Shown: positions 18,068 through 33,957, counted from the stretch's first letter. The stretch is 64,000 nt of DNA from an uncultured virus (IMG/VR IMGVR_UViG_3300025108_000034) (IMGVR_UViG_3300025108_000034); one strand, 5' to 3'. The notes: a model not told the origin generated them from the letters alone. Numbers and translations: made by a program.

Positions 18068-18126
18068 CGTAGTCAGGTAGCTAATGCCTGCATTTTTTGG
18101 AATCCTAGCCTAGTTTTAGTTCTGCT

Positions 18127-18408
18127 GTGGCTGTATTTCCTGATCGCATAGTACTAAAGAATTCCAGCGACGCTGCAGCTGATATTGTTTCAGCTATTGA
18201 AAACGGAGGAACTGACGAGATCACTCAGGGAGAGATCGTTTTAGGTCTTGAAGCTTCTGTTGTAAGCCTGTACACACTCGACTCTCTCGGAAATATTGTA
18301 ACAATTAGCGGTGGAGGAGGTTCTGGCGGATTGGTCTTTTGGGGTGGCGGTGACTTTACCACTGGAACATCTGATGGAGCCGTACCTGATGGTGGTGAAT
18401 TCACGTAG
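18127..18408 (+). CDS. Fibre adaptor (chain A, part 1)
   Basis: N-terminal 'IVLKNS...QGEI'; C-terminal GGGDFTTGTSD...DGGEFT. Confidence 0.6.
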   Translation: MAVFPDRIVLKNSSDAAADIVSAIENGGTDEITQGEIVLGLEASVVSLYTLDSLGNIVTISGGGGSGGLVFWGGGDFTTGTSDGAVPDGGEFT

Positions 18409-18441
18409 TCTTCGGCATTCTAGTCCAGGCAGAATCTTGTT

Positions 18442-19605
18442 ATGACAGTCCCTTCTTATCGCGTACCTGTACGAGTAGCTCGCGGTACGTTGTCTGCTCT
18501 GACGGCGGGATTAGCGAGTCTTGAAGAAGGTGAGCTGTGTTACGCGACAGACCTTGACGTATTATACATAATAGAAGGTGGAGCTCTTACCGCAACAGTA
18601 ACTCAAGTTAATTTAGTAAGTGATACAAGTCCTCAGCTTGGTGGTTCTTTAGACACTAATAGTTTTGAAATTATAACTACCAGTGCAGGCAACGTTCAAA
18701 TAGCACCTGACACTACAGGTGTTCTTGAACTAAGAGGGAACACTGGTAATGATGCGGCCATTCAGTTAAACTGCGAAGCAAATACTCACGGCGTTAAGAT
18801 TAAAGCGCCTCCTCATAGTGCTGGCGCAACATACACTCTTGTTCTTCCTGGCGATACTGGGTCAAGTGGACAAGCCCTTACTACAGACGGCAGTGGAGGC
18901 TTGTCGTGGGCAACTCCAAGCACGGTTGGCTCTATTGGTGATCTGTCCGATGTAGACACTACTACAAATCCGCCTACAGACGGGCAAGTTCTGACCTGGG
19001 TTAATGCGGATTCAGAGTGGCAACCGATCAATTCGGCTGGAGGTGGAGGTTACACTGATCCACTAACGACTAATGGCGATGTCGTAATAAGGTCTGGAGG
19101 ATCAACAATAAGGCTGGGCATCGGGAATGAGTCTCAAGTATTGACATGTTCTAGTGGGCTCCCTGTATGGGCTGACGCTACTGGTGGCGGTGGCGGTGGA
19201 TCTACAACTACTCGACTAACAGAGACTCAAACGGCTTCTTCTGGTGTAGCTACTTTTGTCGGGCTCGGACACTCTGGGACTATCTTAAAAGTTACATCAT
19301 CTTTAGACGCTTGGATTGTTCTTTACGGTTCTGCTGCAGAAAGAACATCAGACTCCAGTAGATCTTATTCTGCTGATCCTTCTACAGGTTCTGGTGTTTT
19401 GGCGGAATTTTATATTACTGCTGGGAGCACTTTAGTAGCGACTCCAAGTACTTCCTATTTTAATAATGACACTTCCGTTACTGAGGCTATTTACGCAGCG
19501 GTCAGGAGTCAGGCTGGGAATGATGTAAATTCAGCTATAGGCATTACAACCTATGGGAATCAAGCAATCACTTCTGTTTCTGGGGGGACCTTTGGCAGCG
19601 GCTAG
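18442..19605 (+). CDS. Tail fibre protein (chain A, part 2)
   Basis: 'VRVARG...LEEGELCYATD', 'DTSPQLGG', 'GQALTTDGSGGLSW' fibre motifs. Confidence 0.8.
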   Translation: MTVPSYRVPVRVARGTLSALTAGLASLEEGELCYATDLDVLYIIEGGALTATVTQVNLVSDTSPQLGGSLDTNSFEIITTSAGNVQIAPDTTGVLELRGNTGNDAAIQLNCEANTHGVKIKAPPHSAGATYTLVLPGDTGSSGQALTTDGSGGLSWATPSTVGSIGDLSDVDTTTNPPTDGQVLTWVNADSEWQPINSAGGGGYTDPLTTNGDVVIRSGGSTIRLGIGNESQVLTCSSGLPVWADATGGGGGGSTTTRLTETQTASSGVATFVGLGHSGTILKVTSSLDAWIVLYGSAAERTSDSSRSYSADPSTGSGVLAEFYITAGSTLVATPSTSYFNNDTSVTEAIYAAVRSQAGNDVNSAIGITTYGNQAITSVSGGTFGSG

Positions 19606-19633
19606 GAATACTAGCCCAGACTAAATTACTCGA

Positions 19634-21166
19634 ATGGCTGATCTTACTGCTCCCATCAAGCCCAAGAAAAGCAGTGTAGCTAGTGAGGTTCCATCGTCCT
19701 CTGATCTTGAAGTTGCAGAACTTGCTGTAAATACAGCCGATGGAAAACTTTTTGTTAAGCATACTGATAATTCCATAAGAGAGATTAGTGGTGGTGGTGG
19801 CGCTGCCACTCTAGGCGCTCTAAATGACGTCAATACAACAAATCCCTCGCCAGCTTTCTCGGCTGATTTCGAGGGGCTTTACCCGTATGTTACAAAAACA
19901 GGCAGCGCGAGCACAGATCAAGCCAAGACTGGTACTACTTCATTCAAAGGAACCGATTCTTATGGGTCCCTAGATTTTGGAACAGTTCTTCAGTCTACTA
20001 CGAAACGATATGACTGTTGGTCCTTTTGGGTCTATAACACCAATGCTCTTGATTCAACCTATAGAGTTTCACTAGGCGGCACGTTGCCATCTCTTAGTTC
20101 CGGTGCTGGCTACAGTATTTATACTAGAGATACTGGCTTTGGCCTATACAGTAACAATACTTTTAATGAAGTCGGAACTCGCCCTACCATAGCAGCAAAC
20201 CAGTGGCATCATTTTGCAGTGCAAGTTGACTTTGGGTCATCGAGTGGATTGACTAGAGTTCCGGCCTCGGTGTCTGTTTGGGTTGACGGCAGTATTGCTG
20301 TGATCAACGAGACGTGGCCTCAAGCATTGGCTGCTTATTCAACAGAGTCTCAGGTCTTGAAATATGCTTGGGCTAGTTCGAGCTCGGGTACGAGTCACAA
20401 CAAATACTATGACGATTTAAGGATTTGCCAGACAGATAGTCCGATTACTTCGATGACTACTTCAACAATTGTAGAAGCAGATTATGACGCAGCTGTTGAC
20501 GCAGTCCAAGTAGATCTTCTTCCTCTTATGGGGTTAGTATATAATGGGAACAAATGGGTGCCTGGATGGCCAAGATTCTATCCTCCAGCCGATGGAAGTC
20601 TTGCCTATAGCGTACTCGAAGGAACAAGTTATTCTTCGGGATCTCTTGAAATTACTGATTTAGATCAGATTCCTTTTTCTAGTGCAGACGTCCCATCGGG
20701 AGAAGAGTGGAAGGTTTATGCTAGCTCTACATATGGAGCGGGAGTTTACACTACGGATAGTTCAGACTCCTGTTATTTCAATGTACATCCTACGAAAGGA
20801 GCCGGAGTAACTGCTACTAGCGGGGTCTGCTTGCGTATAGGAGGTGTGAACTCGGCTACTGACAACACTCCTGAAGTGCGATTTGAATCTGGTGACGGTA
20901 GAGCATCTACCCCTACAGGTAATTATTTAGGCTTTAAACTCCCCTCATCATACAGCGTCGATCAGACTTACACACTGCCTTTAGTCGACGGCTCTTCAGA
21001 TGAGGTATTGACGACTAATGGCAGTGGAGTCTTGTCATGGTCAAACCCTAGAGCAGCTTTGGGGATTGGAGAATATGCAGACGATGCAGCGGCTGGCACT
21101 GGCGGCGTCACTTCTGGTGCTATGTATTACAACACCACATCATCAGATTATCGCCTCAAATCCTGA
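19634..21166 (+). CDS. Tail fibre protein with LamG/concanavalin-like domain (chain A, part 3)
   Basis: 'ELAVNTADGKLF'; 'NQWHHFAV...VWVDG...YYDDLRI' LamG-like pattern. Confidence 0.8.
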   Translation: MADLTAPIKPKKSSVASEVPSSSDLEVAELAVNTADGKLFVKHTDNSIREISGGGGAATLGALNDVNTTNPSPAFSADFEGLYPYVTKTGSASTDQAKTGTTSFKGTDSYGSLDFGTVLQSTTKRYDCWSFWVYNTNALDSTYRVSLGGTLPSLSSGAGYSIYTRDTGFGLYSNNTFNEVGTRPTIAANQWHHFAVQVDFGSSSGLTRVPASVSVWVDGSIAVINETWPQALAAYSTESQVLKYAWASSSSGTSHNKYYDDLRICQTDSPITSMTTSTIVEADYDAAVDAVQVDLLPLMGLVYNGNKWVPGWPRFYPPADGSLAYSVLEGTSYSSGSLEITDLDQIPFSSADVPSGEEWKVYASSTYGAGVYTTDSSDSCYFNVHPTKGAGVTATSGVCLRIGGVNSATDNTPEVRFESGDGRASTPTGNYLGFKLPSSYSVDQTYTLPLVDGSSDEVLTTNGSGVLSWSNPRAALGIGEYADDAAAGTGGVTSGAMYYNTTSSDYRLKS

Positions 21167-21196
21167 TCGGTACACTAGCCCAGGTTGCTGTTAGGA

Positions 21197-21553
21197 ATGA
21201 ACATCAGGGAAGAGCTGAAATCAGCTGAAGTATATCCTACTGGTCCGGTCTCTGCCTGGCCAAAGGAGCGCCATGACGATCTTCTGGTCCGAATGAATGG
21301 TAAGACGTCTAAGCCCGTAAAGGCTACCTTCAATGATATGGCTAAAGGTCTCATGAAAACGACCGGCCAAGCCATTCGCCATGGTAAAGTTAGCGGTAAA
21401 ATCAGGGAAGAACGTTACGCCACCTGTAAGGAATGCCCTTACTTTTTAGAAGAAAGCAAGCGCTGCTCTGAATGTGGCTGTTTCATGGAAGCAAAGACTT
21501 GGGTTGGTGGTAATCCTGACGAGCTATGCCCCAAGAAGAAGTGGAGCAGGTAG
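21197..21553 (+). CDS. Zinc-binding protein (CxxC...CxxCGC...CP..KW)
   Basis: 'RYATCKECP...RCSECGCFM..K...CPKKKW'; late motif at 21169. Confidence 0.65.
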   Translation: MNIREELKSAEVYPTGPVSAWPKERHDDLLVRMNGKTSKPVKATFNDMAKGLMKTTGQAIRHGKVSGKIREERYATCKECPYFLEESKRCSECGCFMEAKTWVGGNPDELCPKKKWSR

Positions 21554-21730
21554 ATGACTGCTATCTGTCCAAATACTGGTGACATGACAACTTGCAATAA
21601 AAAGCCTCGTTGCAAGTGGGGTGAATGTGAAGGGCAAAGTTTGCCAGCTGATCCAGCAGACTACTGCCCAGCTGGTTATACCTTTAGGGAGGATTACTGC
21701 GATTGCCTTTCTGATGGGATTGGGCCTTGA
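21554..21730 (+). CDS. Small cysteine-rich protein (58 aa, MTAICPNT...)
   Basis: Translated by hand; ATG directly follows the previous stop. Confidence 0.55.
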   Translation: MTAICPNTGDMTTCNKKPRCKWGECEGQSLPADPADYCPAGYTFREDYCDCLSDGIGP

Positions 21731-21781
21731 TTGGCATACTACGTCGAACTATTCAATCAGGCGTGATGCCTGGCTTTCGAC

Positions 21782-22507
21782 ATGGCTGACGAGAACACGA
21801 CTCCCGAGACGGAAGTTAGCACTCCTCAAAACTCTAACACCAATGACGACATGATGCCTCGTTCGGAGGCTGAGAATCTTTTGAAGGCTCTCAAGGCTGA
21901 GCGTGAGTCAAGAAAACAATACGAAAAGCAGGTTAAAGAGCAAGCTGCTCAACTAGAGCGTTTCGCCGACGTAAATCCAGATGAGTGGACTTCAATGCAA
22001 GCCGAAGCTGCTAAAGGTGCTCAGTTGCAAGCTCAATTCGGTGAGGCCAAAGAGGCTATCGAATTAAAATACAGTAAACAGGCTGAGGCAGCTGCAATCG
22101 AAGCTACTGCAGCAAAAAATGCCCTTGCTGATTATCAGAAGAAGTACGCTTTGGAAAAAGTGTTTCACGAAGCAGGTGGCCGTACAGATGCAGCTGATGG
22201 CGTAAGTTTCTTTGACATGATGGCCCAGCAGATCGGTGGTAACTTCCGCCAAGAGGCTGACGGTTCGTTGACAGTCATCGATGCAGCTGGCGATCCAGTT
22301 CTTGACAAAGAGTCTGGCAAGCGTATCTCAGCAGCGGACTTCATCGGATCGTACAAAGTGCATCCTATCTATGGCACTTTTTTTAAAGGCACTAAAGGAG
22401 CTGGAGCTGGCATCGGCTATGGCGGCACAGACGCTAACGGAATGCCTTCCGAAGACCTGTCAAGCTTGTCTTCGACGGAGCTGTTCCAGCGTGCATTCGG
22501 CAGTTAA
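21782..22507 (+). CDS. Capsid scaffolding protein
   Basis: Coiled-coil, acidic, 'LLKALKAERE', Gly-rich tail; directly upstream of the major capsid gene. Confidence 0.8.
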   Translation: MADENTTPETEVSTPQNSNTNDDMMPRSEAENLLKALKAERESRKQYEKQVKEQAAQLERFADVNPDEWTSMQAEAAKGAQLQAQFGEAKEAIELKYSKQAEAAAIEATAAKNALADYQKKYALEKVFHEAGGRTDAADGVSFFDMMAQQIGGNFRQEADGSLTVIDAAGDPVLDKESGKRISAADFIGSYKVHPIYGTFFKGTKGAGAGIGYGGTDANGMPSEDLSSLSSTELFQRAFGS

Positions 22508-22532
22508 GTATTGAGGTCTTAAGTGAATATTC

Positions 22533-22560
22533 AACGGAGTCTTTTTGGCTCCGTTTTTAT
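22533..22560 (+). terminator. Rho-independent terminator
   Basis: AACGGAGT...GCTCCGTT followed by TTT. Confidence 0.7.
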
Positions 22561-22580
22561 TGATATCGGTACTCTAGTAT

Positions 22581-22665
22581 TAGCAGCCCAGAAAGGAAAC
22601 TCTGAGATGGAGTGGACTGGAAGGGTGCGATTGCCGAAGCTACTGTGACAGTATCTGAAGCGCTA
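22581..22665 (+). promoter_or_regulatory. Structured 5' leader of the major capsid gene with three GNGAY-loop hairpins
   Basis: ACTCT-GAGAT-GGAGT, GGT-GCGAT(T)-GCC, TACT-GTGAC-AGTA, enclosed by TAGC(A)GC/GCGCTA. Confidence 0.6.
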
Positions 22666-22702
22666 ACACCCAATCTTTGTTCAATCATCTTTAGGAAACA
22701 AA

Positions 22703-23584
22703 ATGGCACTTACTCTGCTTGAAGCTCAGAAACACGCCTCTACTCCACAAGAGTTGGCTGTTGTGACTGAACTGGCCGCTGGTCAGCTCATGTCCGTACT
22801 CCCCTTCCGCTCTATTGAAGGCAATGGCCTTTTCTGGAAGCGTGAAGAGAGTCTCCCTAACGTGGGATTCCGCAATTATAATGGCGCTCTTGCCGAAAGT
22901 TATGGCGAAGTCAGTCAGCAATCTGAGAGCCTAAAGCTCTTTGGTGGTGACATCAAAGTTGACCGCGCTATCGTCGAGCTTGAAGGAGCCGAAGCAAAGG
23001 CTTATCAAATTCAGTCTCGTGTTCGCGCTATGCGCATGGCCTGGGAAGGCTTGTTCATCAACGGCGACTCCAATCAGTCTCCTTCCGAATTCGACGGCCT
23101 TGCCGCTCGTCTCGGCACAGGCTCTAGTCAGTACAAGGCTGTCGGCGGTGCTTTGACTGAAGGCGTTCTTGACGAAGCCCTTGACAACGTTGACGCTCAA
23201 GGTGGCTCTAAGTACATCATTATGTCCAAGTCCATGCGTCGCAAGCTTAGCAGCTTGGCTCGTGGCAACGGCCAAATCGAGATCTCTCGTAATGAGTACG
23301 GCTATCAGCAGACCAGCTACATGGGCGTACCTGTCCTTGAGTTGGACCGCGATCATCAGAACGTCGCTATCCTCGATGGCAACATTGCCAGCCAGGACGT
23401 CTACGTCGTTTCTTTCGGCCCTGACCAGTTGACCGGTATCCAGAACGGCGCAGTAGGCGTCCGTGAGCTCGGCGAGTCATTTGATCAGCCTCAGCTCGTG
23501 ACTCGCGTTGAATGGTATTGCGGATTGGCCCTTATCAATGGTCGCGCAGCCTATCGTCTCGCAACTGTTGACGCAACTATCTGA
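22703..23584 (+). CDS. Major capsid protein (HK97 fold)
   Basis: 293 aa, 'LPFRSIEGN...FRNYN...GGDIKVDRAI...EFDGL...RVEWYCGLA'; codon usage typical of high expression; strong terminator follows. Confidence 0.9.
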   Translation: MALTLLEAQKHASTPQELAVVTELAAGQLMSVLPFRSIEGNGLFWKREESLPNVGFRNYNGALAESYGEVSQQSESLKLFGGDIKVDRAIVELEGAEAKAYQIQSRVRAMRMAWEGLFINGDSNQSPSEFDGLAARLGTGSSQYKAVGGALTEGVLDEALDNVDAQGGSKYIIMSKSMRRKLSSLARGNGQIEISRNEYGYQQTSYMGVPVLELDRDHQNVAILDGNIASQDVYVVSFGPDQLTGIQNGAVGVRELGESFDQPQLVTRVEWYCGLALINGRAAYRLATVDATI

Positions 23585-23611
23585 TTCCGATCAGGTGGCA
23601 CCCCGCGATAT

Positions 23612-23632
23612 AGCCCCTACGGGGGCTTTTTT
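23612..23632 (+). terminator. Rho-independent terminator
   Basis: AGCCCC-TACG-GGGGCT followed by TTTT. Confidence 0.8.
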
Positions 23633-23730
23633 ATTGCAAGTAGGTAACCTAATCTGTAAGTTGAGCAGCTACCGTTCCTTCGTAGCATGATTCAACATTT
23701 CTTCACCTCTAATCTCTAAGGAGTTCAACA

Positions 23731-24084
23731 ATGGCACAACGTTCTACAGGTGTATTTCCACGCGAAGGTTTTAACCTTGACAGCAGCACCGAAATCACCA
23801 CTTCTGCCGTAGCAGCTGCAACTACTCTTGCTAACGCTAAGACAATCCGCGTTATCGTTCTTGGAGCCGCTAGCATCGACGACGCTGGCACCAACAAAGT
23901 AACCGTGGACCTTGGCAATCAAGTGGTCACATTCAATCTTGCCGACCTCGACAAAAATGGTGTTGGCATCGCTCACGTTCGCGGTGCTCTTTGCGACGGC
24001 GACAACAATGTTCAGTACACTCTTGGCGGAACCGCTACAGTGGCTGGCGTCTTCTACGAGCTCGTCGACGGGCCTCGTCGCTGA
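23731..24084 (+). CDS. Putative capsid decoration/cement protein
   Basis: 117 aa after the capsid gene, with AAGGAG RBS, own late motif (23643) and a terminator at 24108-24130. Confidence 0.6.
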   Translation: MAQRSTGVFPREGFNLDSSTEITTSAVAAATTLANAKTIRVIVLGAASIDDAGTNKVTVDLGNQVVTFNLADLDKNGVGIAHVRGALCDGDNNVQYTLGGTATVAGVFYELVDGPRR

Positions 24085-24164
24085 TCCCCGTTTTAACGGA
24101 AAGACATAAAGGGCTTCGGCCCTTTTTTTTATGCTTGGAAACCTATTTGGAATCAGGGGCAATT

Positions 24165-24524
24165 ATGCATCTCAAGAAGTTACCTACTTACTTTGTTAAA
24201 GGGCAAGAACGATTGGCTGCGTATTATACCGTTCAAGCTCGTGAATTGCTTCAGGCTGGATACGTGGAAGAAGGCGAAAAGGCTGAACCCCGGAAGCCCA
24301 TTGAAAGGCAGCCAGAGATCTTGGTAGAAGTTGGCGGAACTGCCTACGACCCTATCAGCTCACAACAAGAGCCTCAAGCCGAGGAAGGGGACCTTGACGG
24401 CATGACGAAAGCCGAGCTCCTCGACTGGGCTGAAGCCGAAGGCCAAGATGTCAAGAGTACTTTGTCAAAAGCTGAGATCCTCAAGGCCTGTAAGGAAATC
24501 CAATTTAACGGTAACGTACTTTAG
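24165..24524 (+). CDS. Protein with C-terminal HeH/Rho-N-like motif
   Basis: 'LDGMTKAELLDWAEAEG..VKSTLSKAEIL'; late motif at 24137. Confidence 0.65.
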   Translation: MHLKKLPTYFVKGQERLAAYYTVQARELLQAGYVEEGEKAEPRKPIERQPEILVEVGGTAYDPISSQQEPQAEEGDLDGMTKAELLDWAEAEGQDVKSTLSKAEILKACKEIQFNGNVL

Positions 24525-24536
24525 ACCCTTAGTCTT

Positions 24537-24710
24537 ATGGAAGTAGTCTATTCATCAGGCCCTCGCTATCTAGACGGCGTCAATATCGACGCTGACGTTA
24601 ACGCGGCTCATGCCAAAGGGCAAGAGATCAAGATTTCGGACCCGGTCACTGGCCTCTCTGGCCTTGGATACGAACCTGGCCAGAAAAACAGAGACGAGAG
24701 TGAATTGTGA
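24537..24710 (+). CDS. Small hypothetical protein (57 aa, MEVVYSSGPRY...)
   Basis: Translated by hand; motif variant at 24510. Confidence 0.5.
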   Translation: MEVVYSSGPRYLDGVNIDADVNAAHAKGQEIKISDPVTGLSGLGYEPGQKNRDESEL

Positions 24711-24900
24711 ATTCTATTTCCAGCCACGAAAGGCTCACGGCTAGATTAACTCTTCTGAGTTGGGGTTCTGTATGTTTTTTCGCTGGAATGAGTACATCGA
24801 TGTTTCTTATTTGGGGATTTCACGGAAATCTTATGCATAACTCGGAGACACGAAGCAAGCAAAGTTTACAGGTAATCTATTCTCAGGGAGAGGTTTTACC

Positions 24901-25281
24901 GTGCCAGAATCGATTCTAGTAATGCTGGCAACCACTCTTGTGGGATGGGGGACATTCACTTGGAAAAGGGCGGAAGAAGCTTTAGTCGTAGCTCAACGAG
25001 CTGTTGTCTCAACCGACAGGCTTGAGGTAAAACTTGCTGAAAAATATGTAACAAAAGAAGACTTCAGATCTTCTATTAATGCCGTAATGCAAGAGTTCAC
25101 TCGGACACGAGAAGATATCAAAGATGGTTTTTCTCAGATTAGGGGAGAATACAAAGAATCATACGATCAGCTTGGCGAGTCTTTAAATCGTCTTGAAGAT
25201 AAAGTAGTTTATCATGTAGACGTACAAGCAAAAGAAGCTAGCGACCTTCGTAGAAAACTTGAGCAAAGAGGTCAAAACTAA
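24901..25281 (+). CDS. Membrane-anchored coiled-coil protein (possibly lysis-related)
   Basis: N-terminal TM segment, then 'LAEKYVTKEDF...LNRLEDKV'. Confidence 0.6.
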   Translation: MPESILVMLATTLVGWGTFTWKRAEEALVVAQRAVVSTDRLEVKLAEKYVTKEDFRSSINAVMQEFTRTREDIKDGFSQIRGEYKESYDQLGESLNRLEDKVVYHVDVQAKEASDLRRKLEQRGQN

Positions 25282-25544
25282 TGGCAGCAAATTCTCGTAC
25301 TGCAAAGTATTACGCGAGCAGTTCTAGAGCTCGTGCCAAGAAGAAAAAGTATGACACTGTTTATCATTCGACAACTGAAAGGAAGAGGTATAGAGCAGCA
25401 TTAAACGCTGCCCGAAAGAAGCGCAAGATATACGGGAAAGGGGGCAAAGATTTGTCTCATACAAAGTCTGGAAAGCTAGTAAGAGAATCTGCTTCGAGAA
25501 ACCGTGCTCGACAGGGTTCAAACGGCAAATCTACCTTAAAGTAG
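25281..25544 (+). CDS. Basic protein with degenerate HNH-like C-terminus
   Basis: K/R-rich; 'GKDLSHTK...ESASRNRAR'. Confidence 0.6.
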   Translation: MAANSRTAKYYASSSRARAKKKKYDTVYHSTTERKRYRAALNAARKKRKIYGKGGKDLSHTKSGKLVRESASRNRARQGSNGKSTLK

Positions 25545-25545
25545 C

Positions 25546-25929: not shown

Positions 25930-25933
25930 TTTC

Positions 25934-26346: not shown

Positions 26347-26353
26347 GCTCTTA

Positions 26354-26548: not shown

Positions 26549-26813
26549 CCAGCCAGGGGGCGCGTAACTCTATTTTACCACCAAGGAGTGTTTCTCCTGC
26601 TTTATCTTCATTAAACACAGGTGGAAATATTTCAGATTCTTCAAACATGCCTTGAATCTGTCGGTCCACATCTTTCATCGTTTTCTGGGTCTTCCACTCG
26701 ACCCAAAAGGAAAGCCAATTTTCGTGAATCTTACGCAAGATTGGATTTTGCCTATAAAGACCTTCTTCCCATAGAAGTCTAATAAGCTCTACGGAAAGGG
26801 CCTTCCAGACCAT
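26532..26813 (-). CDS. Hypothetical protein
   Basis: Start MVWKAL is coupled to the upstream small gene. Confidence 0.5.
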   Translation of the reverse strand: MVWKALSVELIRLLWEEGLYRQNPILRKIHENWLSFWVEWKTQKTMKDVDRQIQGMFEESEIFPPVFNEDKAGETLLGGKIELRAPWLDEDDD

Positions 26814-26814
26814 T

Positions 26815-26961
26815 TTACTTGTCAGTGTCACTTTTATGAGGGAACGCAATACGAAGAGCTTTTAGGATTGCGTCAGCTACACCGTTACCAGCAAGTGGAG
26901 TAAAGGGTAGAACCTCTGAGGCGATGAATAGCACAAGGCCAAGGATAAGAGTCGCTTCCAT
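26815..26961 (-). CDS. Small membrane protein, holin-like (48 aa)
   Basis: MEATLILGLVLFIASEVLPFTPLAGNGVADAILKAL..., translated by hand. Confidence 0.55.
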   Translation of the reverse strand: MEATLILGLVLFIASEVLPFTPLAGNGVADAILKALRIAFPHKSDTDK

Positions 26962-27023
26962 GATTAGTTTTTGTAGACACTAATATTCTGCCTATCGGCA
27001 TCCTAGCTGGAGACAAAGACGCT

Positions 27024-28244
27024 ATGATCCTTTCATCTGCTGATATTCTGCGTATTCTTCAAAGAAGTACGATCATCAGTGGTTCGGCTCGGATCTCTAT
27101 AGTCGACAACAATCCTGCTTTAAGCGGTAAAGAAGGACTTTTTGTTTATATCGAAAGATTTCCATCTGTCGAAGAGTTTGAAGTTACCTGGCGAATTTGG
27201 ATAGAGTCAGACGGAAGTGAACCAGACGATCTTGTCATCGAAGAGATGAAAAGATTACTTCCTAGATTTAAGATTCGACCGGGCTTGTTGATAGAAGCTT
27301 CCGTTACTGATTTTAAATCTAGAAATACGGAAGTCAGGCCTGAAGCCCCTAGTACACAGCCCTCTGTTGAGCTTGCGAACAAGGTTGAAAAGCGCTTTGC
27401 TGATCTGACTCAAGAGATACAAGACAGAATGCTGCTCGTTAATTCGGGTAGAAGTGGATCCGATGGTATTGATGGGAAGGACGGGTTACCGGGTCCAGCG
27501 GGACCTCCTGGTCGTGACGGCAAGGACTTGCTTGTCACTGATGCGGTCCTTAACGATCTCAATGACGTTGAGATTGCGGACACAATACCGCTCAAGAAAA
27601 GTCAAGTACTCACATATGATGGCTCTCGATGGACCAATCTATACATTCCTCGGCTAACATCTTCCTCTGGAGGCGGGGGGTCTTCCACGGTAATAACTGG
27701 CGGGAGCGGTACAACGATTGCCTGGATTGAGCATGACGAAACGGGGGAGCCACATAACCGCAAGTTTCACGTAAACAACACAGATATAACGCTGGTCACT
27801 GAAATACATGTTAGCAAAACAAATCAAGCAGGAAATGACGTTGAATTGCTCCTTGAAGCAATACTGCCTATAAGCGGACAGATCTATCTAACGCAAGTCA
27901 GTGATCCTTCTCAGGCTCATCTTTTTTCAATCACTAGTTATTCTGAAACGACTGATGGCTTCCTTCTAGTTGTAGCTCATGTCGAGACTCCCGGACCTGA
28001 ATCAGCTCTAATAGAAAACCAAGCATACAATTTTCTTTTCCTTTCGTCTTCAAGCGTATCAGGAGGTATCCCAGAGGCTCCTCAAGACGGCGGCTACTAC
28101 GTTCGAAGAAATGGGCAATGGGTTAATCTTAGCGTTGCATTGGGTGCATTTGACAACCGCGACTTCGATGGAGGTAACTTGACTACCGGTACATCTGACT
28201 CGATTGATAATGCACCGTTAGATGGCGGAGACTTTACGACCTAA
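27024..28244 (+). CDS. Collagen-repeat fibre/adaptor protein (chain B, part 1)
   Basis: G-X-Y run (GIDGKDGLPGPAGPPGRDGKD), 'IPEAPQDGGYYVRRNGQW', C-terminal DGG motifs. Confidence 0.75.
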   Translation: MILSSADILRILQRSTIISGSARISIVDNNPALSGKEGLFVYIERFPSVEEFEVTWRIWIESDGSEPDDLVIEEMKRLLPRFKIRPGLLIEASVTDFKSRNTEVRPEAPSTQPSVELANKVEKRFADLTQEIQDRMLLVNSGRSGSDGIDGKDGLPGPAGPPGRDGKDLLVTDAVLNDLNDVEIADTIPLKKSQVLTYDGSRWTNLYIPRLTSSSGGGGSSTVITGGSGTTIAWIEHDETGEPHNRKFHVNNTDITLVTEIHVSKTNQAGNDVELLLEAILPISGQIYLTQVSDPSQAHLFSITSYSETTDGFLLVVAHVETPGPESALIENQAYNFLFLSSSSVSGGIPEAPQDGGYYVRRNGQWVNLSVALGAFDNRDFDGGNLTTGTSDSIDNAPLDGGDFTT

Positions 28245-28273
28245 GGAATACTAATGAGATCAACGGAGTAGTC

Positions 28274-29662
28274 ATGCCAGTCCCTTCACCCAGGAATGCA
28301 GTAAAACCGGCAAGGGGCGATTACAGTGACTTGTCGACCAATATTTCGTCTTTAAAAGATGGAGAGATATGCTACGCAATTGATCAAGATCAGCTATATA
28401 TAAATGAAAGCGGAACACTTGTTCCGGCTGGTGTTACTGTGTCTGGCGTTCAGACTGTTACTGGTAACAAAACTTTTTCAGGTGACGTAGACCTGACTGG
28501 AGTTTTTAAAGTAGATTCTACAGCTGTTACTGCTACCGCTATTGAGTTAAACTACACTGGTGACCTTGGAACTTTCACTGGTTCTACAATTGCTGACAAT
28601 TCTAATGTAAAAGTTGCTTTACAAGCGATAGAAACAGCGGTCGAAAGTGGCGGTGGCGGAGGCGGTGGATCTTTGACTGCCGACGATGCCGGAACAGCTA
28701 ACTATTCGTCCGGGACTATCAACATCTCTGGGGATACTGGTATTAGCACTACGGCCAGTGGTAATACTTTAACTATTGACTTAGACGATACTGCGGTTAC
28801 TGCGGCGTCTTACGGAGCAGCTGGGACTGTTGGAACTTTTACTGTTGACGAACAGGGTCGACTGACAAGTGCTTCTGACGTTTCAATTAGCATTGCTCAC
28901 AGTCAGGTCTCTGACTTTGACTCCGGGGTCCAGGCTAACAGATTGGATCAAATGGCCGTGCCTACCGCCTCGGTAAACATGAATAGCCAAAAGATAACTG
29001 GCTTAGCTGATCCGGTATCCGATCAAGATGCGGCGACAAAATCTTATGCAGATGCTCTTGTTTCAGGGCTTGATATTAAAAAATCAACAAGAGTTGCCAC
29101 TACAGCTAATATCACATTAAGCAATACTCAAACTGTCGACAATGTATCTCTAGTTGCTGGAAACAGGGTGCTGGTCAAAGATCAGACAGATGCATCTGAG
29201 AATGGTATTTATGACGTAGTCTCAGGAGGAGGCTGGACTCGTTCTTCCGATGCAGACAATACCCCTTCAGGAGAAGTAACGTCCGGCATGTTTACGTTTG
29301 TAGAGGATGGTGATACAAGTGCTGGCATTGGCTATGTATTGGTCACATCGGATCCTATAACTCTTGGAACAACCGATCTTACTTTCACTCAGTTTTCTGA
29401 GATTGGTGCTGTAACAGCAGGCAATGGTCTTACCAAGACGGGTCAAACTCTGGATGTGGGTACTGCTGACAGTGGCCGAATTGTAGTCAATGCCGACAAT
29501 ATAGACTTAGCGGTTAGTGGAGTTACTGCTGGAACTTACAACGGTTTCACCGTTGATACCTACGGTCGAGCTACGGCATTCTCTCAGCCCACTACACTGG
29601 CTGGATATGGCATTACGGACGCTCTGAGCTCAGACTCTACGATAGACGGCGGAACTTATTGA
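28274..29662 (+). CDS. Tail fibre protein (chain B, part 2)
   Basis: 'DAATKSYAD...RVATTANITLS...RVLVKDQTDASENGIY', 'PTTLAGYGITDA'. Confidence 0.85.
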   Translation: MPVPSPRNAVKPARGDYSDLSTNISSLKDGEICYAIDQDQLYINESGTLVPAGVTVSGVQTVTGNKTFSGDVDLTGVFKVDSTAVTATAIELNYTGDLGTFTGSTIADNSNVKVALQAIETAVESGGGGGGGSLTADDAGTANYSSGTINISGDTGISTTASGNTLTIDLDDTAVTAASYGAAGTVGTFTVDEQGRLTSASDVSISIAHSQVSDFDSGVQANRLDQMAVPTASVNMNSQKITGLADPVSDQDAATKSYADALVSGLDIKKSTRVATTANITLSNTQTVDNVSLVAGNRVLVKDQTDASENGIYDVVSGGGWTRSSDADNTPSGEVTSGMFTFVEDGDTSAGIGYVLVTSDPITLGTTDLTFTQFSEIGAVTAGNGLTKTGQTLDVGTADSGRIVVNADNIDLAVSGVTAGTYNGFTVDTYGRATAFSQPTTLAGYGITDALSSDSTIDGGTY

Positions 29663-29710
29663 TTAGGAAGACTAGCGGGATCGCCTAGATAGGCACGACA
29701 GGATCGCCAC

Positions 29711-32700
29711 ATGGCAAACACCGTTAAGTTGAAGCGTTCAGCAGTACAAGGCAACGCTCCGTCTACAACAGATTTAGCGCTAGGAGAACTTGGCCTAAAC
29801 ACCTATGACGGTAAGCTTTTCATGAAGAAAGACGATGGCACAGAGGCCATTGTGGAGATTGGAGCTGGTGGCACAGATGGAGAGCGAGACTTCATCGCAA
29901 GCGGTACGATAGCCAATGGAAACAGAGTAGTTCTTAATGCAGATGGAACAGTAAGCACCATCACTGGTCCTGCTAGCACCCAGGAGGTTGGGACTGCTGC
30001 TCAATTCGCTACCAGCGCAGTTGGAGTAGGGTCCGCATATGATAGCGTCAATCAGAAGGTTGTTGTTGTTTATCCTAATGGAGGCAGCTCTCAGAGGCCC
30101 ACTGCAGTCGTTGGGACAGTAAGCGGAACATCTATCAGTTTTGGTACTCCTGTTCAACTTGATACGAACAGTTGCTGGGACGTTCGGGCTGTTTACGATG
30201 TAGCCAGCGGGAAGGTGGTTGTTATTTATAGAGACAGTGGTGATAGCTTTAAGGGTAAAGCATTTGTTGGTACAGTAAGCGGAACATCTATTAGTTTTGG
30301 TAGTAAAGTTACATATTCAGCTTCTGGCCTTAGTTATCACTCTATTGTGTATGACGAAACTAACGAAAAAGTAGTAATTGCTTTTAACGGAGGTACTAAC
30401 TCTTCTGGACGCGCTGTTGTTGGTACAGTTTCAGGAACCAGTATAAGCTTTGGATCTGAAGTTTCCCTTACTGGCGAAAACAAAGAGGCAAATTTTATTG
30501 TGGCTGCATATGACAGCACTAACGGTAAGATTGTCGTTGCCTATGAAGACGATGGTAATTCTGGAGATTATGGAAAAGCTGTAGTCGGCACAGTCTCGGG
30601 AACTAGTATAAGTTTTGGCACTCCTGTCACCTTCGAGTCTGCTCAAACTAAACAAATAGCAATTACTTTTGACAGTTTTCAAGATAAAGTAGTCATAAGT
30701 TACCGTGACAACGGAAATAGTAAATATGGAACGGCAATCGTAGGCACGGTCTCTGGTACATCGATTAGCTTTGGCACCCCTGTTGTATTTGAAAATACGC
30801 ATGAGGTGTCTATGACGTCAATGTGTTTTGATAGCGACGAAAACAAGGTAATCATTGCTTATAGGGCTTATTCTGGAAGTGCTGAACAAGGAGGTTATGT
30901 AATAGCTGGCGAGGTGTCTGGAACGTCAATATCGTTTGGCTCTTCCCTTCAGTTTGAGTCAACTGCAGTTGGTACTTACGGTACAAGTCTGTCTTACGAT
31001 AGTGCCAACAGAAGATCAGTCATTTCTTACCGAAACGGGACTCCAGGTCCAGGTAAATCTGTTGTTTACAAGTCGGCAGGTGGCGGAAAAGAGCTAACTT
31101 CTACTAATTATATTGGCTTGGCGGCGGAGTCTATTGCGCATCAAGCTACCGGCAAGATAACTGTTACGGGCGGCATAAACGAAAGCCAGTCTGGGCTAAC
31201 AGTCGCAGAATCATATTACGTCCAATCAGACGGTAGCTTGTCTACGACTGCAGGTACGCCTGCTGTTTTTGCTGGAACCGCTCTGTCAAGCACAAAAATT
31301 CTTGCCAATATACCAGAAGCCAGTAGTAATTCAGAACTGGTTTTGGACACTTCGCCTCAGTTAGGGGGTGACTTGGATATGAATTCCAACTCTATTTCCA
31401 GTGGTGTTCTTGGTGTTAAAAACGAGGGGACTCAGTCAGAGATTCGTCTTTATTGCGAATCAGGAAACGCACATTATGCTGCTATCAAAGCTCCTCTTCA
31501 CAGTGACTTTAGTGGCAATATTGCGTTTACGATGCCTGGAGTGGATGGCACCGCAAATCAAGTCCTTAAAACTGACGGCAGCGGAAATCTTGGCTGGGTA
31601 AGTCAAAGCAGCGGTGGCGGTGGAAGTGGAGGTGGCGCTGCTAGCTCTGTTAGTAATGACACTGGACATCTTTATATCGTCAATGCCACTGGAAACGACG
31701 ACAGTAACATTTATATTCAAGCGGTGTCTGGCGAGAATTCTATCGTTTGTAATGATGATTCAGGTGTCGAACTTTACTATAATGCTAGTTGGAGATTAAC
31801 AACAAGTTCTACTGGGTTTACTGTTAATGGAACTGGCCTGGGCAATTTCAAAGCAAACGACAGCCAATATCTAACAGTAGGAACTGGTGATGATTTTCAA
31901 ATCTACCATGATGAAACTAATACTTATTTAGATAACAATACAGGTCATATTTATATCAGAAATAATGTAAACGACGATGATGGCGGTAATATCTACATCC
32001 AGGCAAAGTCCGGTGAAAACTCTATTGCTTGTAATGATGATTCAAGTGTTAGTCTCTACTATGATGACAGTTGGAGATTCGCTACAAGTTCTAGTGGATT
32101 TACTGTTAATGGAACCGGATTAGGTAATTTTAAAGCAGATGATAATCAATACTTGACAGTAGGAGCTGACAATGATTTCCAGGTTTATCACGACGCAACC
32201 AATACCTACTTAGATAATGATACTGGTTCGATTTACATCCGTAATAACGTTGCCGGTGATGTAGGCGGCAATATTTACATCCAAGCTAAGTCAGGTGAGG
32301 ATTCTATCGTTTGCTACGATGATGCAAGTGTTGTTCTTTACTATGATGGTTCTTGGAGATTTAAAACAACATCCTCTGGAGTTGAAATTCCAGGCACCTT
32401 AACCGTAGGCGTTCTTAATTTCCCAGATGGCAATCAGTTAACTTTTGGAGACAGCAATGACCTCCAGATTTACCATGACGGTGGAGATGGAAGTGAAACT
32501 AACGACACCTTTATCGATAATAATGTTGGTTCTATTTATATCCGAAATAACGTTGACGGGGACGTAAACGCAGATATTTATATTCAGGCCAGGTCAGGTG
32601 AAAATTCCATTGCTTGTTATGATGATTCAAGTGTTGCTCTTTATTATGATGGTTCTTGGAAGTTCCAAACAAGTACTAGTGGATTTACTGTCAATGGAAC

Positions 32701-33949
32701 AGGGCTAGGTAACTTTAAGGCAGGTGATAACCAATATTTAACGGCAGGAACGGGTGATGATTTCCAAATTTACCATAATGAAACTAACACTTATTTAGAT
32801 AATGACACTGGTTCTGTTTATATCCGTAATAACGTTTCTACGGATGTAGGCGGAGATATTTACATCCAAGCTAAGTCCGGCGAGCATTCTATTACTTGTA
32901 ACGATGATTCAAGTGTCGCTCTTTATTATGATGGTTCTTGGAGGCTTCAGACATCATCTTCTGGTTTCACTGTTAACGGGACTGGACTAGGCAACTTTAA
33001 AGCAAATGACAATAATTATTTAACGGCTGGTACTGGTGATGATTTCCAAATTTACCATGATGAAACTAATACCTACTTAGATAATGATACAGGTCATATT
33101 TATATCAGAAACAATGTCGCTGCAGACGTAGGTGGTAATATTTACATCCAAGCTAAGTCAGGTGAAAATTCCATTACTTGTAACGATGATTCAAGTGTCG
33201 CTCTTTATTATGATAACGTTGCAAAGTTACAGACAACCACAAGTGGAGTTGCTGTTAATGGAAATCTTGATATGTCTGCGGACAATTACAAGATATTACT
33301 TGGAACTGATGATGACTTTGAAGTTTATCATGATGGAACCAATACCTACTTAGATAACGACACTGGTGATGTTTATATCAGAAACAATGTCGCTGCAGAT
33401 GTGAGCGGAGACATTCATATTCAAGCTAAGTCTGGTGAAGAAAGTATTGTTTGTAATGATGATAGTAGTGTACAACTTTATTACAATAATGTTCTAAAGT
33501 TGAATACATCAACAAGTGGAGTTAATGTTGCTGGAACAGTAAGTGCTACTGGGTTAGACCTTTCTGGGATGTTGTCTGAGGGGGCTAATATAACTGCAGG
33601 AAAGTTAAGTGCTAATACTAACATTGATCTTGAGGATGGGATGGTTCATTTGTTTACTACGACAGAAACTACAACCTCAACACCAAATATAAGATTTAGT
33701 TCTAGTTCTTCTCTTAATAGTAGTATGTCGATTGGTGATGCAGTTACTGTTGCCTTGATATCAAAAACAGCAGCTGCAGGGTACTCTGCTCAATTACAAA
33801 TTGATGGTACCAACGTAACTGAAGAATGGCTAGGTGGATCTGCTCCAAGTGCTGGTGGGTCAGGTGGATACGATGTTTACACGTATAATATAATCAAAAC
33901 AGCCGATGCAAGCTTTCTTGTGCTGGCAAACTTAGTTAACTTTGCTTAG
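29711..33949 (+). CDS. Long repetitive tail fibre / receptor-binding protein (chain B, part 3)
   Basis: 'LALGELGLNTYDGKLF'; GTVSGTSISFG repeats; about 100-aa DFQIYHD/IYIQAKSGE repeats. Confidence 0.9.
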   Translation: MANTVKLKRSAVQGNAPSTTDLALGELGLNTYDGKLFMKKDDGTEAIVEIGAGGTDGERDFIASGTIANGNRVVLNADGTVSTITGPASTQEVGTAAQFATSAVGVGSAYDSVNQKVVVVYPNGGSSQRPTAVVGTVSGTSISFGTPVQLDTNSCWDVRAVYDVASGKVVVIYRDSGDSFKGKAFVGTVSGTSISFGSKVTYSASGLSYHSIVYDETNEKVVIAFNGGTNSSGRAVVGTVSGTSISFGSEVSLTGENKEANFIVAAYDSTNGKIVVAYEDDGNSGDYGKAVVGTVSGTSISFGTPVTFESAQTKQIAITFDSFQDKVVISYRDNGNSKYGTAIVGTVSGTSISFGTPVVFENTHEVSMTSMCFDSDENKVIIAYRAYSGSAEQGGYVIAGEVSGTSISFGSSLQFESTAVGTYGTSLSYDSANRRSVISYRNGTPGPGKSVVYKSAGGGKELTSTNYIGLAAESIAHQATGKITVTGGINESQSGLTVAESYYVQSDGSLSTTAGTPAVFAGTALSSTKILANIPEASSNSELVLDTSPQLGGDLDMNSNSISSGVLGVKNEGTQSEIRLYCESGNAHYAAIKAPLHSDFSGNIAFTMPGVDGTANQVLKTDGSGNLGWVSQSSGGGGSGGGAASSVSNDTGHLYIVNATGNDDSNIYIQAVSGENSIVCNDDSGVELYYNASWRLTTSSTGFTVNGTGLGNFKANDSQYLTVGTGDDFQIYHDETNTYLDNNTGHIYIRNNVNDDDGGNIYIQAKSGENSIACNDDSSVSLYYDDSWRFATSSSGFTVNGTGLGNFKADDNQYLTVGADNDFQVYHDATNTYLDNDTGSIYIRNNVAGDVGGNIYIQAKSGEDSIVCYDDASVVLYYDGSWRFKTTSSGVEIPGTLTVGVLNFPDGNQLTFGDSNDLQIYHDGGDGSETNDTFIDNNVGSIYIRNNVDGDVNADIYIQARSGENSIACYDDSSVALYYDGSWKFQTSTSGFTVNGTGLGNFKAGDNQYLTAGTGDDFQIYHNETNTYLDNDTGSVYIRNNVSTDVGGDIYIQAKSGEHSITCNDDSSVALYYDGSWRLQTSSSGFTVNGTGLGNFKANDNNYLTAGTGDDFQIYHDETNTYLDNDTGHIYIRNNVAADVGGNIYIQAKSGENSITCNDDSSVALYYDNVAKLQTTTSGVAVNGNLDMSADNYKILLGTDDDFEVYHDGTNTYLDNDTGDVYIRNNVAADVSGDIHIQAKSGEESIVCNDDSSVQLYYNNVLKLNTSTSGVNVAGTVSATGLDLSGMLSEGANITAGKLSANTNIDLEDGMVHLFTTTETTTSTPNIRFSSSSSLNSSMSIGDAVTVALISKTAAAGYSAQLQIDGTNVTEEWLGGSAPSAGGSGGYDVYTYNIIKTADASFLVLANLVNFA
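31650..33500 (+). repeat. Tandem intragenic repeats of roughly 300 bp in the long fibre gene
   Basis: Recurrent nucleotide blocks such as GATGATTTCCAAATTTACCAT, TTAGATAATGA, ATTTACATCCAAGCTAAGTC; boundaries approximate. Confidence 0.8.
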
Positions 33950-33957
33950 AGGTAGCC

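What the first reader, a model, noticed from the sequence alone, without database searches (positions are those of the whole stretch)
18127..33949. Two parallel three-part fibre chains with matching C-terminal and N-terminal docking motifs
Seen: chain A (18127, 18442, 19634) and chain B (27024, 28274, 29711) have different bodies but matching ends. The first members end with a double motif (GGGDFTTGTSD..DGGEFT; DGGNLTTGTSD..DGGDFTT). The second members start VPS.R..V+.ARG....L.+GE+CYA.D and end SGGTF / DGGTY. The third members start +K.K+S.V....PS..DL...EL.+NT.DGKLF.K..D. Inference: a plug-and-socket code in which each DGGx(F/Y) tail docks a specific N-terminal cap, possibly branching at the double motif. 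Modules could then swap between chains to vary receptor binding.
Basis: partly seen in the sequence, partly recalled or inferred. Interest (0 to 1): 0.75.

Follow-up and report, generated by a model that had tools for sequence, protein, structure and literature searches.

The report
End-to-end connectors in phage fibre genes
Two sets of three neighbouring fibre genes in this marine phage seem to snap together end to end through a short tail on one protein and a small cap on the next, and the same joint turns up in many other phages.

Summary
In this cyanosiphovirus-like window (closest named relative: Synechococcus phage S-CRES3), four proteins end in a ...[D/S]-G-G-x-[F/Y] tail. Each is followed directly by a gene that starts with a ~50-residue cap. 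The caps are divergent relatives of the Mtd_N domain (Pfam PF18454; Bordetella phage Mtd, streptococcal HylP).

In 310 sources, 201 of 250 tail-ending genes precede a capped gene, against 45 of 1,859 other genes. Tail subtype follows cap class, even where one homologous body carries different caps. Natural fusions place a DGG/DCG motif just before internal caps.

A trimer:trimer model docks the last ~10 residues of P0005 onto residues 1-11 of P0006. It scored 0.86 against 0.03 for the best of 3 controls.

The best reading is two linear, non-covalent fibre chains joined by class-matched connectors. Distal modules swap behind constant caps. Branching at the double motif is not shown. All double tails pair with the N-terminally extended class-A cap, which suggests a longer interface instead.

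I found no description of the tail in print. This scan noted the same joint earlier on other DNA (e1-2789633). There is no experimental evidence.

The parts
16334..18067 (+). 577-aa Cys-rich protein at the end of the tail module. It is a candidate anchor for chain A, it has no tail, and this role is inferred.
   Evidence: Syntenic with S-CRES3 gp92. No PHROG hit and no PDB hit. In 6 of 6 deduplicated relatives the gene upstream of a class-B cap lacks a tail.
18127..18408 (+). P0001, a 93-aa adapter made of a class-B cap (18127-18312) and a double tail GGGDFTT...DGGEFT (18343-18405).
   Evidence: Class-B-capped proteins carry a class-A tail in 5 of 6 cases, median length 96 aa.
18442..19605 (+). 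P0002, the middle segment of chain A, with a class-A cap (18442-18588) and the tail VSGGTFGSG (19576-19602).
   Evidence: Homologue of S-CRES3 gp94. In L009-L011 its residues 164-381 are joined directly to a P0001-type cap in one 362-aa protein.
19634..21166 (+). P0003, the distal segment of chain A, with a class-E cap (19634-19798) and no tail.
   Evidence: 70 of 72 BLAST hits cover the cap only. Class-E-capped proteins lack a tail in 77 of 87 cases.
27024..28244 (+). P0004, the fibritin-like first member of chain B. It has an unknown N-terminal domain, a collagen-like stretch (27447-27527), a foldon (28062-28142) and a double tail DGGNLTT...DGGDFTT (28167-28241).
   Evidence: phmmer against the PDB matches foldon-bearing chains over residues ~343-376, including fibritin 2ibl_A at E 6.5e-5.
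28274..29662 (+). P0005, the middle segment of chain B, with a class-A cap (28274-28420) and the tail SDSTIDGGTY (29630-29659).
   Evidence: Tail residues 74 and 76-85 of the last 85 form the modelled interface. Its body occurs behind other cap classes elsewhere.
29711..33949 (+). P0006, the distal segment of chain B, with a class-E cap (29711-29872), ~52-residue repeats (about 29990-30832) and ~94-residue repeats (about 31589-33595). It has no tail.
   Evidence: Cap residues 1-11, 15, 17-18, 21, 23 and 28 form the modelled interface. 73 of 132 hits cover the cap only.

Best explanation
The region encodes two linear, three-protein fibres. Their segments are separate trimers held end to end by a terminal connector.

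**The connector.** The proximal partner ends in a short tail: hydrophobic-[D/N/S]-[G/C]-G-x-[F/Y or another small residue], at or within 3 residues of the free C-terminus. The distal partner starts with a ~50-residue cap of the Mtd_N superfamily. This cap has a basic first beta-strand (K/R-x-K/R-R/S), then L..GE, then an aromatic hairpin. In the model, each tail lies parallel to the cap's first strand and sits between two cap subunits (strand augmentation). The terminal aromatic residue and the carboxylate lie against the conserved basic strand.

**The classes.** Tails and caps come in matched classes:

| Cap class | Matched tail |
|---|---|
| A ('VPSxR..ARG') | double tail, DGGxFT(T) |
| C ('RIKRR..AELAFNE') | DGGN[F/Y] |
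| E ('K.KRS..GELA.N') | DGG[T/S/V][F/Y] or SGGTFGSG |
| D (Mtd/HylP-like) | ...CG[S/T]P, GGGA and similar |
| B | none (starts a chain) |

**The two chains.**
- Chain A is a tail-tip fibre: P0001 (a 93-aa adapter, cap B + tail A), then P0002 (cap A + tail E), then P0003 (cap E, distal).
- Chain B: P0004 (fibritin-like, collagen + foldon + tail A), then P0005 (cap A + tail E), then P0006 (cap E, distal, repeat-rich).

Distal bodies are exchanged behind constant caps, which would vary receptor binding.

**Shown and inferred.** Shown by computation: the motifs, the adjacency, the class covariation, the fusions and one modelled junction. Inferred: actual binding, strand geometry, class specificity, the anchoring sites of P0001 and P0004, and receptor binding by P0003 and P0006.
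For: **Window.** The four tails are the only plausible C-terminal GGx[F/Y] ends among 284 ORFs, and each lies directly upstream of one of the five caps.

**Conservation.** S-CRES3 gp93/94/95 keep chain A's ends.

**Adjacency.**
- First sample (161 sources, 2,016 genes, deduplicated pairs): tail+cap 55, tail only 21, cap only 18, neither 1,133, Fisher p 6.5e-62.
- Full sample (310 sources, 3,558 genes): 201, 49, 45 and 1,814, p 1e-185.

**Class covariation.**
- Class C: of 73 caps with an upstream ORF, the tail is DGGN[FY] in 61 and never has T at x.
- Class E: of 82 caps with an upstream ORF, 71 follow a [T/S/V/L]-type tail and none has N at x.
- At the level of upstream-body clusters, 9 of 9 tail-bearing class-C clusters have N as the commonest x, and 8 of 8 class-E clusters have T/S/V/L.

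**Same body, different caps.** P0005-like bodies behind cap C follow [DNK]GG[NAD][FY] in 36 of 38 cases. Behind cap D they follow DCG[ST]P in 8 of 8. Behind cap A they follow DGGxFTT in 2 of 2. Behind the podovirus-type cap they follow no tail in 7 of 7.

**Distant named phages.** 7 of 8 have ...DGGxx at the end of the gene upstream of the capped gene. BPP-1 Bbp9 ends ...LGGIA just before Mtd.

**Fusions.**
- Arthrobacter phage Ranunculus gp34 has '...AIDGGSN' 8 residues before an internal cap.
- In the best 150 library hits, 29 of 72 non-tandem internal cap-like units have [DN][GC]G within 30 residues upstream. The background is 4.7% of windows.

**Protein-level selection.** Tail codons vary synonymously, all three stop codons occur, and the gap runs from -41 to +126 nt.

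**Model.**
- Input: P0005 last 85 residues x3 with P0006 first 100 residues x3.
- Score: 0.86 (runs 0.85, 0.90, 0.86), against 0.03 for the best of 3 controls.
- Calibration: the mark was reached by 116 of 157 solved complexes and 2 of 215 mismatched pairs. These counts hold only roughly here, because my own alignments and six chains were used.
- Quality: the runs agree in at least 97% of contacts, and the partner's pLDDT is at least 70.
- PDB check: profile searches of the PDB found only HylP chains alone. By that test the pass is not a memory of a solved junction.
Against: - There is no experiment, and only one junction was modelled.
- The controls were unrelated proteins, not non-cognate fibre ends. 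The model therefore does not test specificity, and it may favour stacking of any two beta-rich trimer ends.
- The loci were fetched with fibre and cap queries. They are enriched and related, and duplicates were removed only by exact end strings. The p-values therefore overstate independence.
- 49 of 250 tail-ending genes are not followed by a cap, and 45 caps follow no tail. T4-like cyanophage S-RIM50 has a cap with no tail upstream.
- The window's caps do not reach Pfam Mtd_N. Profile-profile support is moderate: 72%, 58% and 41% probability.
- Caps also occur as tandem internal repeats with no DGG between them, in 43 units. The cap therefore does not always need a tail.
- Mutual information between tail residues and cap columns does not single out the modelled interface.
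- Conserved gene order alone could produce much of the class correlation.
Confidence: 0.75

Rival explanations
1. Branching or multivalent joint. The double tail of class A (two DGGxFT copies) binds two cap trimers, or several alternative distal fibres compete for one tail. The chains would then be trees rather than lines. This is compatible with the connector reading and differs only in topology.
For: In G002, an 87%-complete relative, an 817-aa protein with a double tail is followed by two class-A-capped, tail-less genes of 670 and 572 aa. In L310, two different proteins end in C-type tails (IDGGDF and ADGGNF) but only one class-C cap gene is in view. I recall, without having checked it here, that BPP-1 fibres were reported to carry two Mtd trimers each.
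Against: In the window there are two double tails and two class-A caps, one after each. Every class-A tail seen is double, and every class-A cap has about 5 extra N-terminal residues with a second basic mini-strand, 'VPSxR' before 'V+.ARG'. This fits a longer one-to-one interface. The first tail copy is internal and has no free carboxylate.
Confidence: 0.15
2. No docking. The tails and caps are each protein's own folding or trimerisation elements, namely a C-terminal beta-strand cap and an N-terminal nucleation domain. They are inherited together because the fibre cassette is conserved, and each protein attaches to the virion on its own.
For: The cap is a trimer-forming domain in solved HylP structures matched by the profile. 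Gene order is conserved in many loci. Caps exist without tails upstream: 45 pairs, and S-RIM50. Tandem internal caps exist.
Against: The tail changes with the cap when the body stays the same. Tails sit on at least 9-10 unrelated upstream body clusters per class. Tail-less variants lack a downstream capped gene (L009). DGG-cap fusions are about 8-fold enriched. The modelled interface consists of exactly these two elements.
Confidence: 0.12
3. The tail is a processing or assembly signal, for example a double-glycine-type cleavage site or a chaperone tag, rather than a docking strand.
For: A Gly-Gly pair close to a terminus recalls double-glycine processing sites. This is a recalled resemblance and no call supports it.
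Against: No peptidase or chaperone gene co-occurs in the annotated neighbourhood. The signal correlates with the class of the next gene's N-terminus, which a generic tag would not do. The model places the tail in the interface.
Confidence: 0.04
4. The conserved gene ends are a nucleotide-level signal for translational coupling or re-initiation between fibre genes.
For: The gaps are short (median 13 nt) and some stop and start codons overlap.
Against: All Gly, Asp and Thr codons are used within the DGGTF and DGGNF tails. All three stop codons occur, and the gaps range from -41 to +126 nt. Conservation is at the peptide level.
Confidence: 0.01

Closest known systems
Mtd (major tropism determinant) of Bordetella phage BPP-1 and Pfam Mtd_N (PF18454)
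   Same: A small N-terminal trimer domain at the start of a receptor-binding protein. A passage in PMC10743442 says it presumably attaches Mtd to the tail fibre protein. 14 of the 32 aligned caps match PF18454. The gene upstream of mtd (bbp9) ends ...LGGIA.
   Different: The window's own caps (classes A, B, E) do not reach the Pfam model and are linked only at profile level. In my searches the literature names no partner motif. Here a matched C-terminal tail and several matched classes are described.
Streptococcal prophage hyaluronidases HylP (PDB 2c3f, 2dp5, 2yvv, 3eka, 6x3m)
   Same: Their N-termini are the only solved chains matched by the cap profiles (E 2e-6 with A1, E 2.8e-10 with A4). 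In phage Javan512 the gene upstream of the hyaluronate lyase ends ...ILDGGNQ.
   Different: The solved entries hold HylP alone, so no joint has been seen. The bodies are unrelated to those in the window.
T4 long tail fibre gp34-gp35-gp36-gp37
   Same: A fibre built in series from products of neighbouring genes, with the distal one binding the receptor (abstract of PMC5537660, seen in a search listing).
   Different: There is no sequence relationship beyond a weak PHROG hit to the first 65 residues of P0003. No short, class-coded terminal motif is known for T4.
Branched receptor-binding protein systems of Klebsiella phages (anchor-branch RBP1 plus a conserved docking peptide on RBP2)
   Same: A conserved N-terminal element of one RBP docks on another RBP, and modules can be exchanged (abstracts of PMC6872550 and PMC13352976, seen in search listings).
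   Different: There the socket is a T4 gp10-like branching domain on the side of RBP1, and the plug is the N-terminal peptide. Here the plug is the extreme C-terminus, the socket is the N-terminal cap, and the arrangement is end to end. No gp10-like domain was found.
Docking domains of modular polyketide synthases (a working analogy only)
   Same: Matched C-terminal and N-terminal elements on successive proteins set the order of an assembly line (abstract of 10.1101/669291, seen in a search listing).
   Different: The proteins, fold and biology are unrelated.

Membership tests
Mtd_N (Pfam PF18454) | Match to the Pfam model at its curated cut-off (26.3 bits) | tested here: not met
   There is no Mtd_N hit for P0001-P0006 at E<=0.1, none for the P0006 cap alone at E<=1, and none in the relative G002 at E<=0.01. 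14 of the 32 caps in A1, from other loci, do match.
Mtd_N (Pfam PF18454) | Profile-level homology to bona fide Mtd_N domains | tested here: inconclusive
   hhalign gives 72% probability (E 3.4e-5) for class E against class D, and 58% (E 1e-4) for class A against class D. Both are in register over 38-39 columns. The joint profile A1 finds HylP N-termini at E 2e-6.
Mtd_N (Pfam PF18454) | Lies at the N-terminus of a fibre or receptor-binding protein | tested here: met
   In the locus sample, 339 cap hits are N-terminal and there is 1 true internal cap. All five window caps start at residue 1.
Mtd_N (Pfam PF18454) | Intertwined trimeric beta-prism fold | not tested
   Structure prediction was not accepting jobs. 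The complex model was not compared with Mtd or HylP coordinates.
T4 fibritin / foldon (Pfam PF07921 Fibritin_C), for P0004 | Match to the Pfam model at its cut-off (21 bits) | tested here: not met
   The score is 19.6 bits (E 0.0011) over residues 341-370.
T4 fibritin / foldon (Pfam PF07921 Fibritin_C), for P0004 | Sequence match to a solved foldon | tested here: met
   phmmer matches residues ~343-376 to foldon-bearing chains. The best is E 3.2e-9, and fibritin 2ibl_A is at E 6.5e-5.
T4 fibritin / foldon (Pfam PF07921 Fibritin_C), for P0004 | Long coiled-coil shaft and attachment at the neck | not tested
   P0004 has a collagen-like stretch instead (Pfam Collagen, E 0.0023). Its position in the virion is unknown.
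Klebsiella-type branched RBP system | T4 gp10-like branching domain in the proximal protein | tested here: not met
   No such domain is among the Pfam or PHROG hits of P0001, P0002, P0004 or P0005. A structural comparison was not done.
T4-type long tail fibre chain | Homology to gp34-gp37 | tested here: inconclusive
   The only hit is residues 1-65 of P0003 to phrog_35830, 'long tail fiber protein distal subunit', at E 3.2e-4.

The most novel reading that the evidence does not exclude
The tail-cap joint is a general assembly grammar for multi-gene fibres of tailed phages, and it can be read from sequence. It appears in cyanophages, actinophages, streptococcal HylP prophages and Bordetella BPP-1. 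About five residues at a free C-terminus would choose which cap class, and so which next segment, can bind. Adapters of 90-100 residues (cap + tail) would act as class converters, and double tails would allow extended or branched joints. Fibre topology could then be read from a genome, and segments re-wired by exchanging a cap or a few terminal residues.
Probability: 0.35. Interest if true: 0.85.

Novelty: new variant of a known kind. Interest (0 to 1): 0.7.

Why it matters
Fibre genes are among the least annotated and most variable phage genes. A rule that reads which neighbouring proteins join, and in what order, would turn strings of 'hypothetical' or 'minor tail' genes into a fibre plan.

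It would also give a concrete, testable answer to how Mtd- and HylP-type proteins attach to their fibres. It would explain how distal receptor-binding modules can be exchanged without disturbing assembly.

The cap family is very large. 45,063 representative clusters match at E<=1e-3 among 1.84 billion representatives, so the rule would apply widely.

Tried and rejected
- **DNA similarity.** Megablast of the region against named phages found nothing.
- **Alignment queries.** I used single caps instead. The genome-contig scan was never run.
- **Own assembly.** It is not held. G001 is the same contig as L002 and added nothing.
- **Literature.**
  - The search for 'Mtd_N' was mis-tokenised to 'mtdn' and returned mtDNA papers.
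  - 'C-terminal motif' in PMC13252515 concerns a different baseplate contact.
  - The 'chain-like fibers' of phage A1002 (PMC13730344) are dimers on a rope protein, which is a different arrangement.
  - PMC9437275 and PMC12143355 do not mention Mtd or this joint in the passages searched.
  - The literal motif strings occur in 35 papers, and none of the 15 listed is about phages.
- **Mutual information.** The analysis of tail residues against cap columns was spread over the whole cap and did not pick out the interface.
- **Body clustering.** Single-linkage clustering of downstream bodies collapsed through Gly-rich segments and was not used.
- **Internal cap in L284.** It was an over-extended ORF.
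- **Pfam Mtd_N.** It did not ring in G002 or in the 14 control genomes.
- **Scan notes.** Word and genome look-ups in the scan's notes gave nothing.

Full report
**What the window is.** The 64-kb window is a marine siphovirus-type phage genome segment. PHROG matches give a tail protein, a tape measure (8831-11647), a head scaffold (21782-22507), a major head protein (22703-23584), an endolysin (34785-35909), a terminase and replication genes. The closest named relative is Synechococcus phage S-CRES3. Its gp92-gp95 are syntenic with 16334-21166. There is no DNA-level match to named phages. IMG/VR holds near-identical contigs.

**The observation.**
- The paired members share only their ends. P0002 and P0005 align over residues 1-49. 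P0003 and P0006 align over the first ~55 residues plus one short internal motif. P0001 and P0004 align over the last ~48 residues.
- A C-terminal GGx[F/Y] lies within 12 residues of the end in only 5 of 284 ORFs. These are the four upstream members and one 51-aa ORF that is probably not a gene.
P0001 (93 aa) itself begins with a cap. P0004 is fibritin-like, with a collagen-like stretch and a foldon (residues ~343-376) immediately before its tail. The foldon matches the foldon-bearing chains of the PDB, including fibritin 2ibl.

**What the caps are.**
- All five window caps and the caps of other loci align as one domain. It has a basic first strand, then L..GE, then an aromatic hairpin (A1).
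- 14 of the 32 aligned caps match Pfam Mtd_N.
- The profile finds only the N-termini of phage hyaluronidases HylP among solved structures.
- The window's own classes do not reach the Pfam model. They are linked to bona fide Mtd_N caps by profile-profile comparison at 72% and 58% probability.
- I therefore call them probable divergent members of the superfamily, not established members.
- The family is huge. 45,063 representative clusters match at E<=1e-3, and 10,723 at E<=1e-10.

**Adjacency.**
- I called genes in every fetched locus and marked caps with an HMM.
- In the first 161 sources, deduplicated neighbouring pairs gave tail+cap 55, tail only 21, cap only 18 and neither 1,133.
- In all 310 sources the counts were 201, 49, 45 and 1,814. 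So 80% of tail-ending genes precede a capped gene, against 2.4% of other genes.
- The sample is biased, because the loci were fetched with fibre and cap queries and many are related. The effect size matters more than the p-values.
- Independent support comes from distant named phages. In 7 of 8 fetched, the gene upstream of the capped gene ends in ...DGGxx. These are two Arthrobacter phages and one phage each of Cellulophaga, Streptococcus, Pseudomonas, Microbacterium and Gordonia. The miss is the T4-like S-RIM50.
- In BPP-1, Bbp9 ends ...LGGIA before Mtd.

**A class code.** Tail subtype follows cap class.

| Cap class | Caps with an upstream ORF | Upstream tail |
|---|---|---|
| C | 73 | DGGN[FY] in 61; T never at x |
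| E | 82 | DGG[T/S/V/L][F/Y], DCGTF or SGGTFGSG in 71; N never at x |
| A | 9 | double tail ending DGGx[F/I]T(x) in 8 |
| D | 33 | mostly ...CG[ST]P, DGGTP, GGGA and similar |
| B | 6 | none |

- Conserved gene order could give this pattern, but two results argue for constraint.
- First, the typical tails sit on 9 (class C) and 8 (class E) separate upstream-body clusters.
- Second, P0005-like bodies occur behind caps A, C, D, E and others, and the upstream tail changes with the cap. The counts are 36 of 38 for C, 8 of 8 for D and 2 of 2 for A. The podovirus-type cap that starts a fibre has no tail upstream in 7 of 7.
- A grammar follows. B-capped proteins carry A tails (5 of 6). A-capped proteins carry E tails (6 of 10). 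D-capped proteins carry C or D tails. C-capped proteins carry E tails (76 of 81). E-capped proteins carry none (77 of 87), which makes them the distal segments.
- In L083 a 91-aa protein with cap A and a C-type tail is inserted before a cap-C version of the P0005 body. It acts as a class converter.
- In L009-L011 the P0001 cap is joined directly to the P0002 body in one protein. That protein has no tail, and no capped gene follows it.

**Fusions.**
- Arthrobacter phage Ranunculus gp34 has '...AIDGGSN' 8 residues before an internal cap.
- In the best 150 library hits, 135 proteins have an N-terminal cap, and there are 115 internal cap-like units. Of these, 43 are tandem repeats without any DGG.
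- Of the other 72, 29 have [DN][GC]G within 30 residues upstream, against 4.7% of random windows.
- So tail and cap also occur as one continuous piece, as expected if they touch. The tandem repeats show that the cap does not always need a tail.

**The model.**
- The last 85 residues of P0005 (alignment A2, 3 copies) and the first 100 of P0006 (A3, 3 copies) scored 0.86, against 0.03 for the best of 3 controls.
- The mark was reached by 116 of 157 solved complexes and 2 of 215 mismatched pairs. These counts hold only roughly here.
- The runs agree in at least 97% of contacts, and the partner's pLDDT is at least 70.
- The interface is tail residues 74 and 76-85 and cap residues 1-11, 15, 17-18, 21, 23 and 28.
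- The closest pairs run in parallel, with tail 79-84 against cap 3-10, and they involve two cap subunits per tail. The terminal Tyr touches Lys8 and Asp21.
- This supports binding but does not show it. The controls were not non-cognate fibre ends.

**Rivals.**
- A nucleotide-level signal is excluded by free synonymous variation, all three stop codons and variable gaps.
- The view that each end serves only its own protein's folding is hard to square.
- Branching at the double motif is open but unsupported in the window. The double tail always goes with the N-terminally extended class-A cap, which suggests a longer one-to-one joint. G002 shows one double tail followed by two tail-less class-A genes.

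**Novelty.**
- The cap is known, and the literature says it presumably attaches Mtd to the fibre (PMC10743442, passages read).
- I found no description of the tail, of tail-cap classes or of adapters in six searches. These covered open-access papers and bioRxiv only, and I consulted no supplements.
- This scan noted the same joint earlier on another genome (e1-2789633). That note agrees with my reading but is not independent evidence.

**Verdict.** This is a real feature that is probably functional: a new variant of the known principle of modular, serially assembled phage fibres.

Noticed in passing
window 27024-28244: P0004 combines an unknown N-terminal domain (residues 1-140), a collagen-like stretch (142-168) and a T4-fibritin-type foldon (~343-376). 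It is followed by a ~30-residue tail. Where this fibritin-like protein sits on the virion is unknown.
   Followed up: partly
window 16334-18067: A 577-aa Cys-rich protein directly upstream of chain A has no PHROG or PDB match. It is conserved in position in S-CRES3 (gp92) and in IMG/VR relatives. It may be the site to which the P0001 cap binds.
   Followed up: partly
window 29990-30832 and 31589-33595: P0006 contains five ~52-residue repeats ('VGTVSGTSISFG') and seven ~94-residue repeats ('IYIQAKSGE'). The second set matches Pfam DUF2793 and several PHROGs in multiple stretches.
   Followed up: no
L318 (G002:C1) 29643-35938: A relative's tail module has an 817-aa class-A-capped protein with a double tail. 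It is followed by two class-A-capped genes without tails (670 and 572 aa). This could be a branch point or a pair of alternative distal fibres.
   Followed up: partly
L310 1872-5674: A P0004 homologue ends in IDGGDF, but the next gene is uncapped. A 115-aa uncapped protein ends in ADGGNF just before the only class-C-capped gene. So there are two tails and one cap in view.
   Followed up: no
L090, L093, L095, L097, L100, L102: Genes ending '...KYF(T/I)IDGGTP' are followed by uncapped genes that start 'MKNGKIFIVNG...' or similar. This may be a further socket type that the cap profile does not cover.
   Followed up: no
P0007, P0008, P0009, P0017, P0031, P0033 (library proteins): Some proteins consist of 3-6 tandem cap-like units with no DGG between them, so the cap unit can also be stacked as an internal repeat.
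   Followed up: partly
window 18271-18312 versus 28080-28130: BLASTP aligns the last hairpin of the P0001 cap ('LYTLDSLGNIVTIS') with the foldon hairpin of P0004 ('YYVRRNGQWVNLS'). This is a weak hint that the cap's hairpin and the foldon are alike.
   Followed up: no
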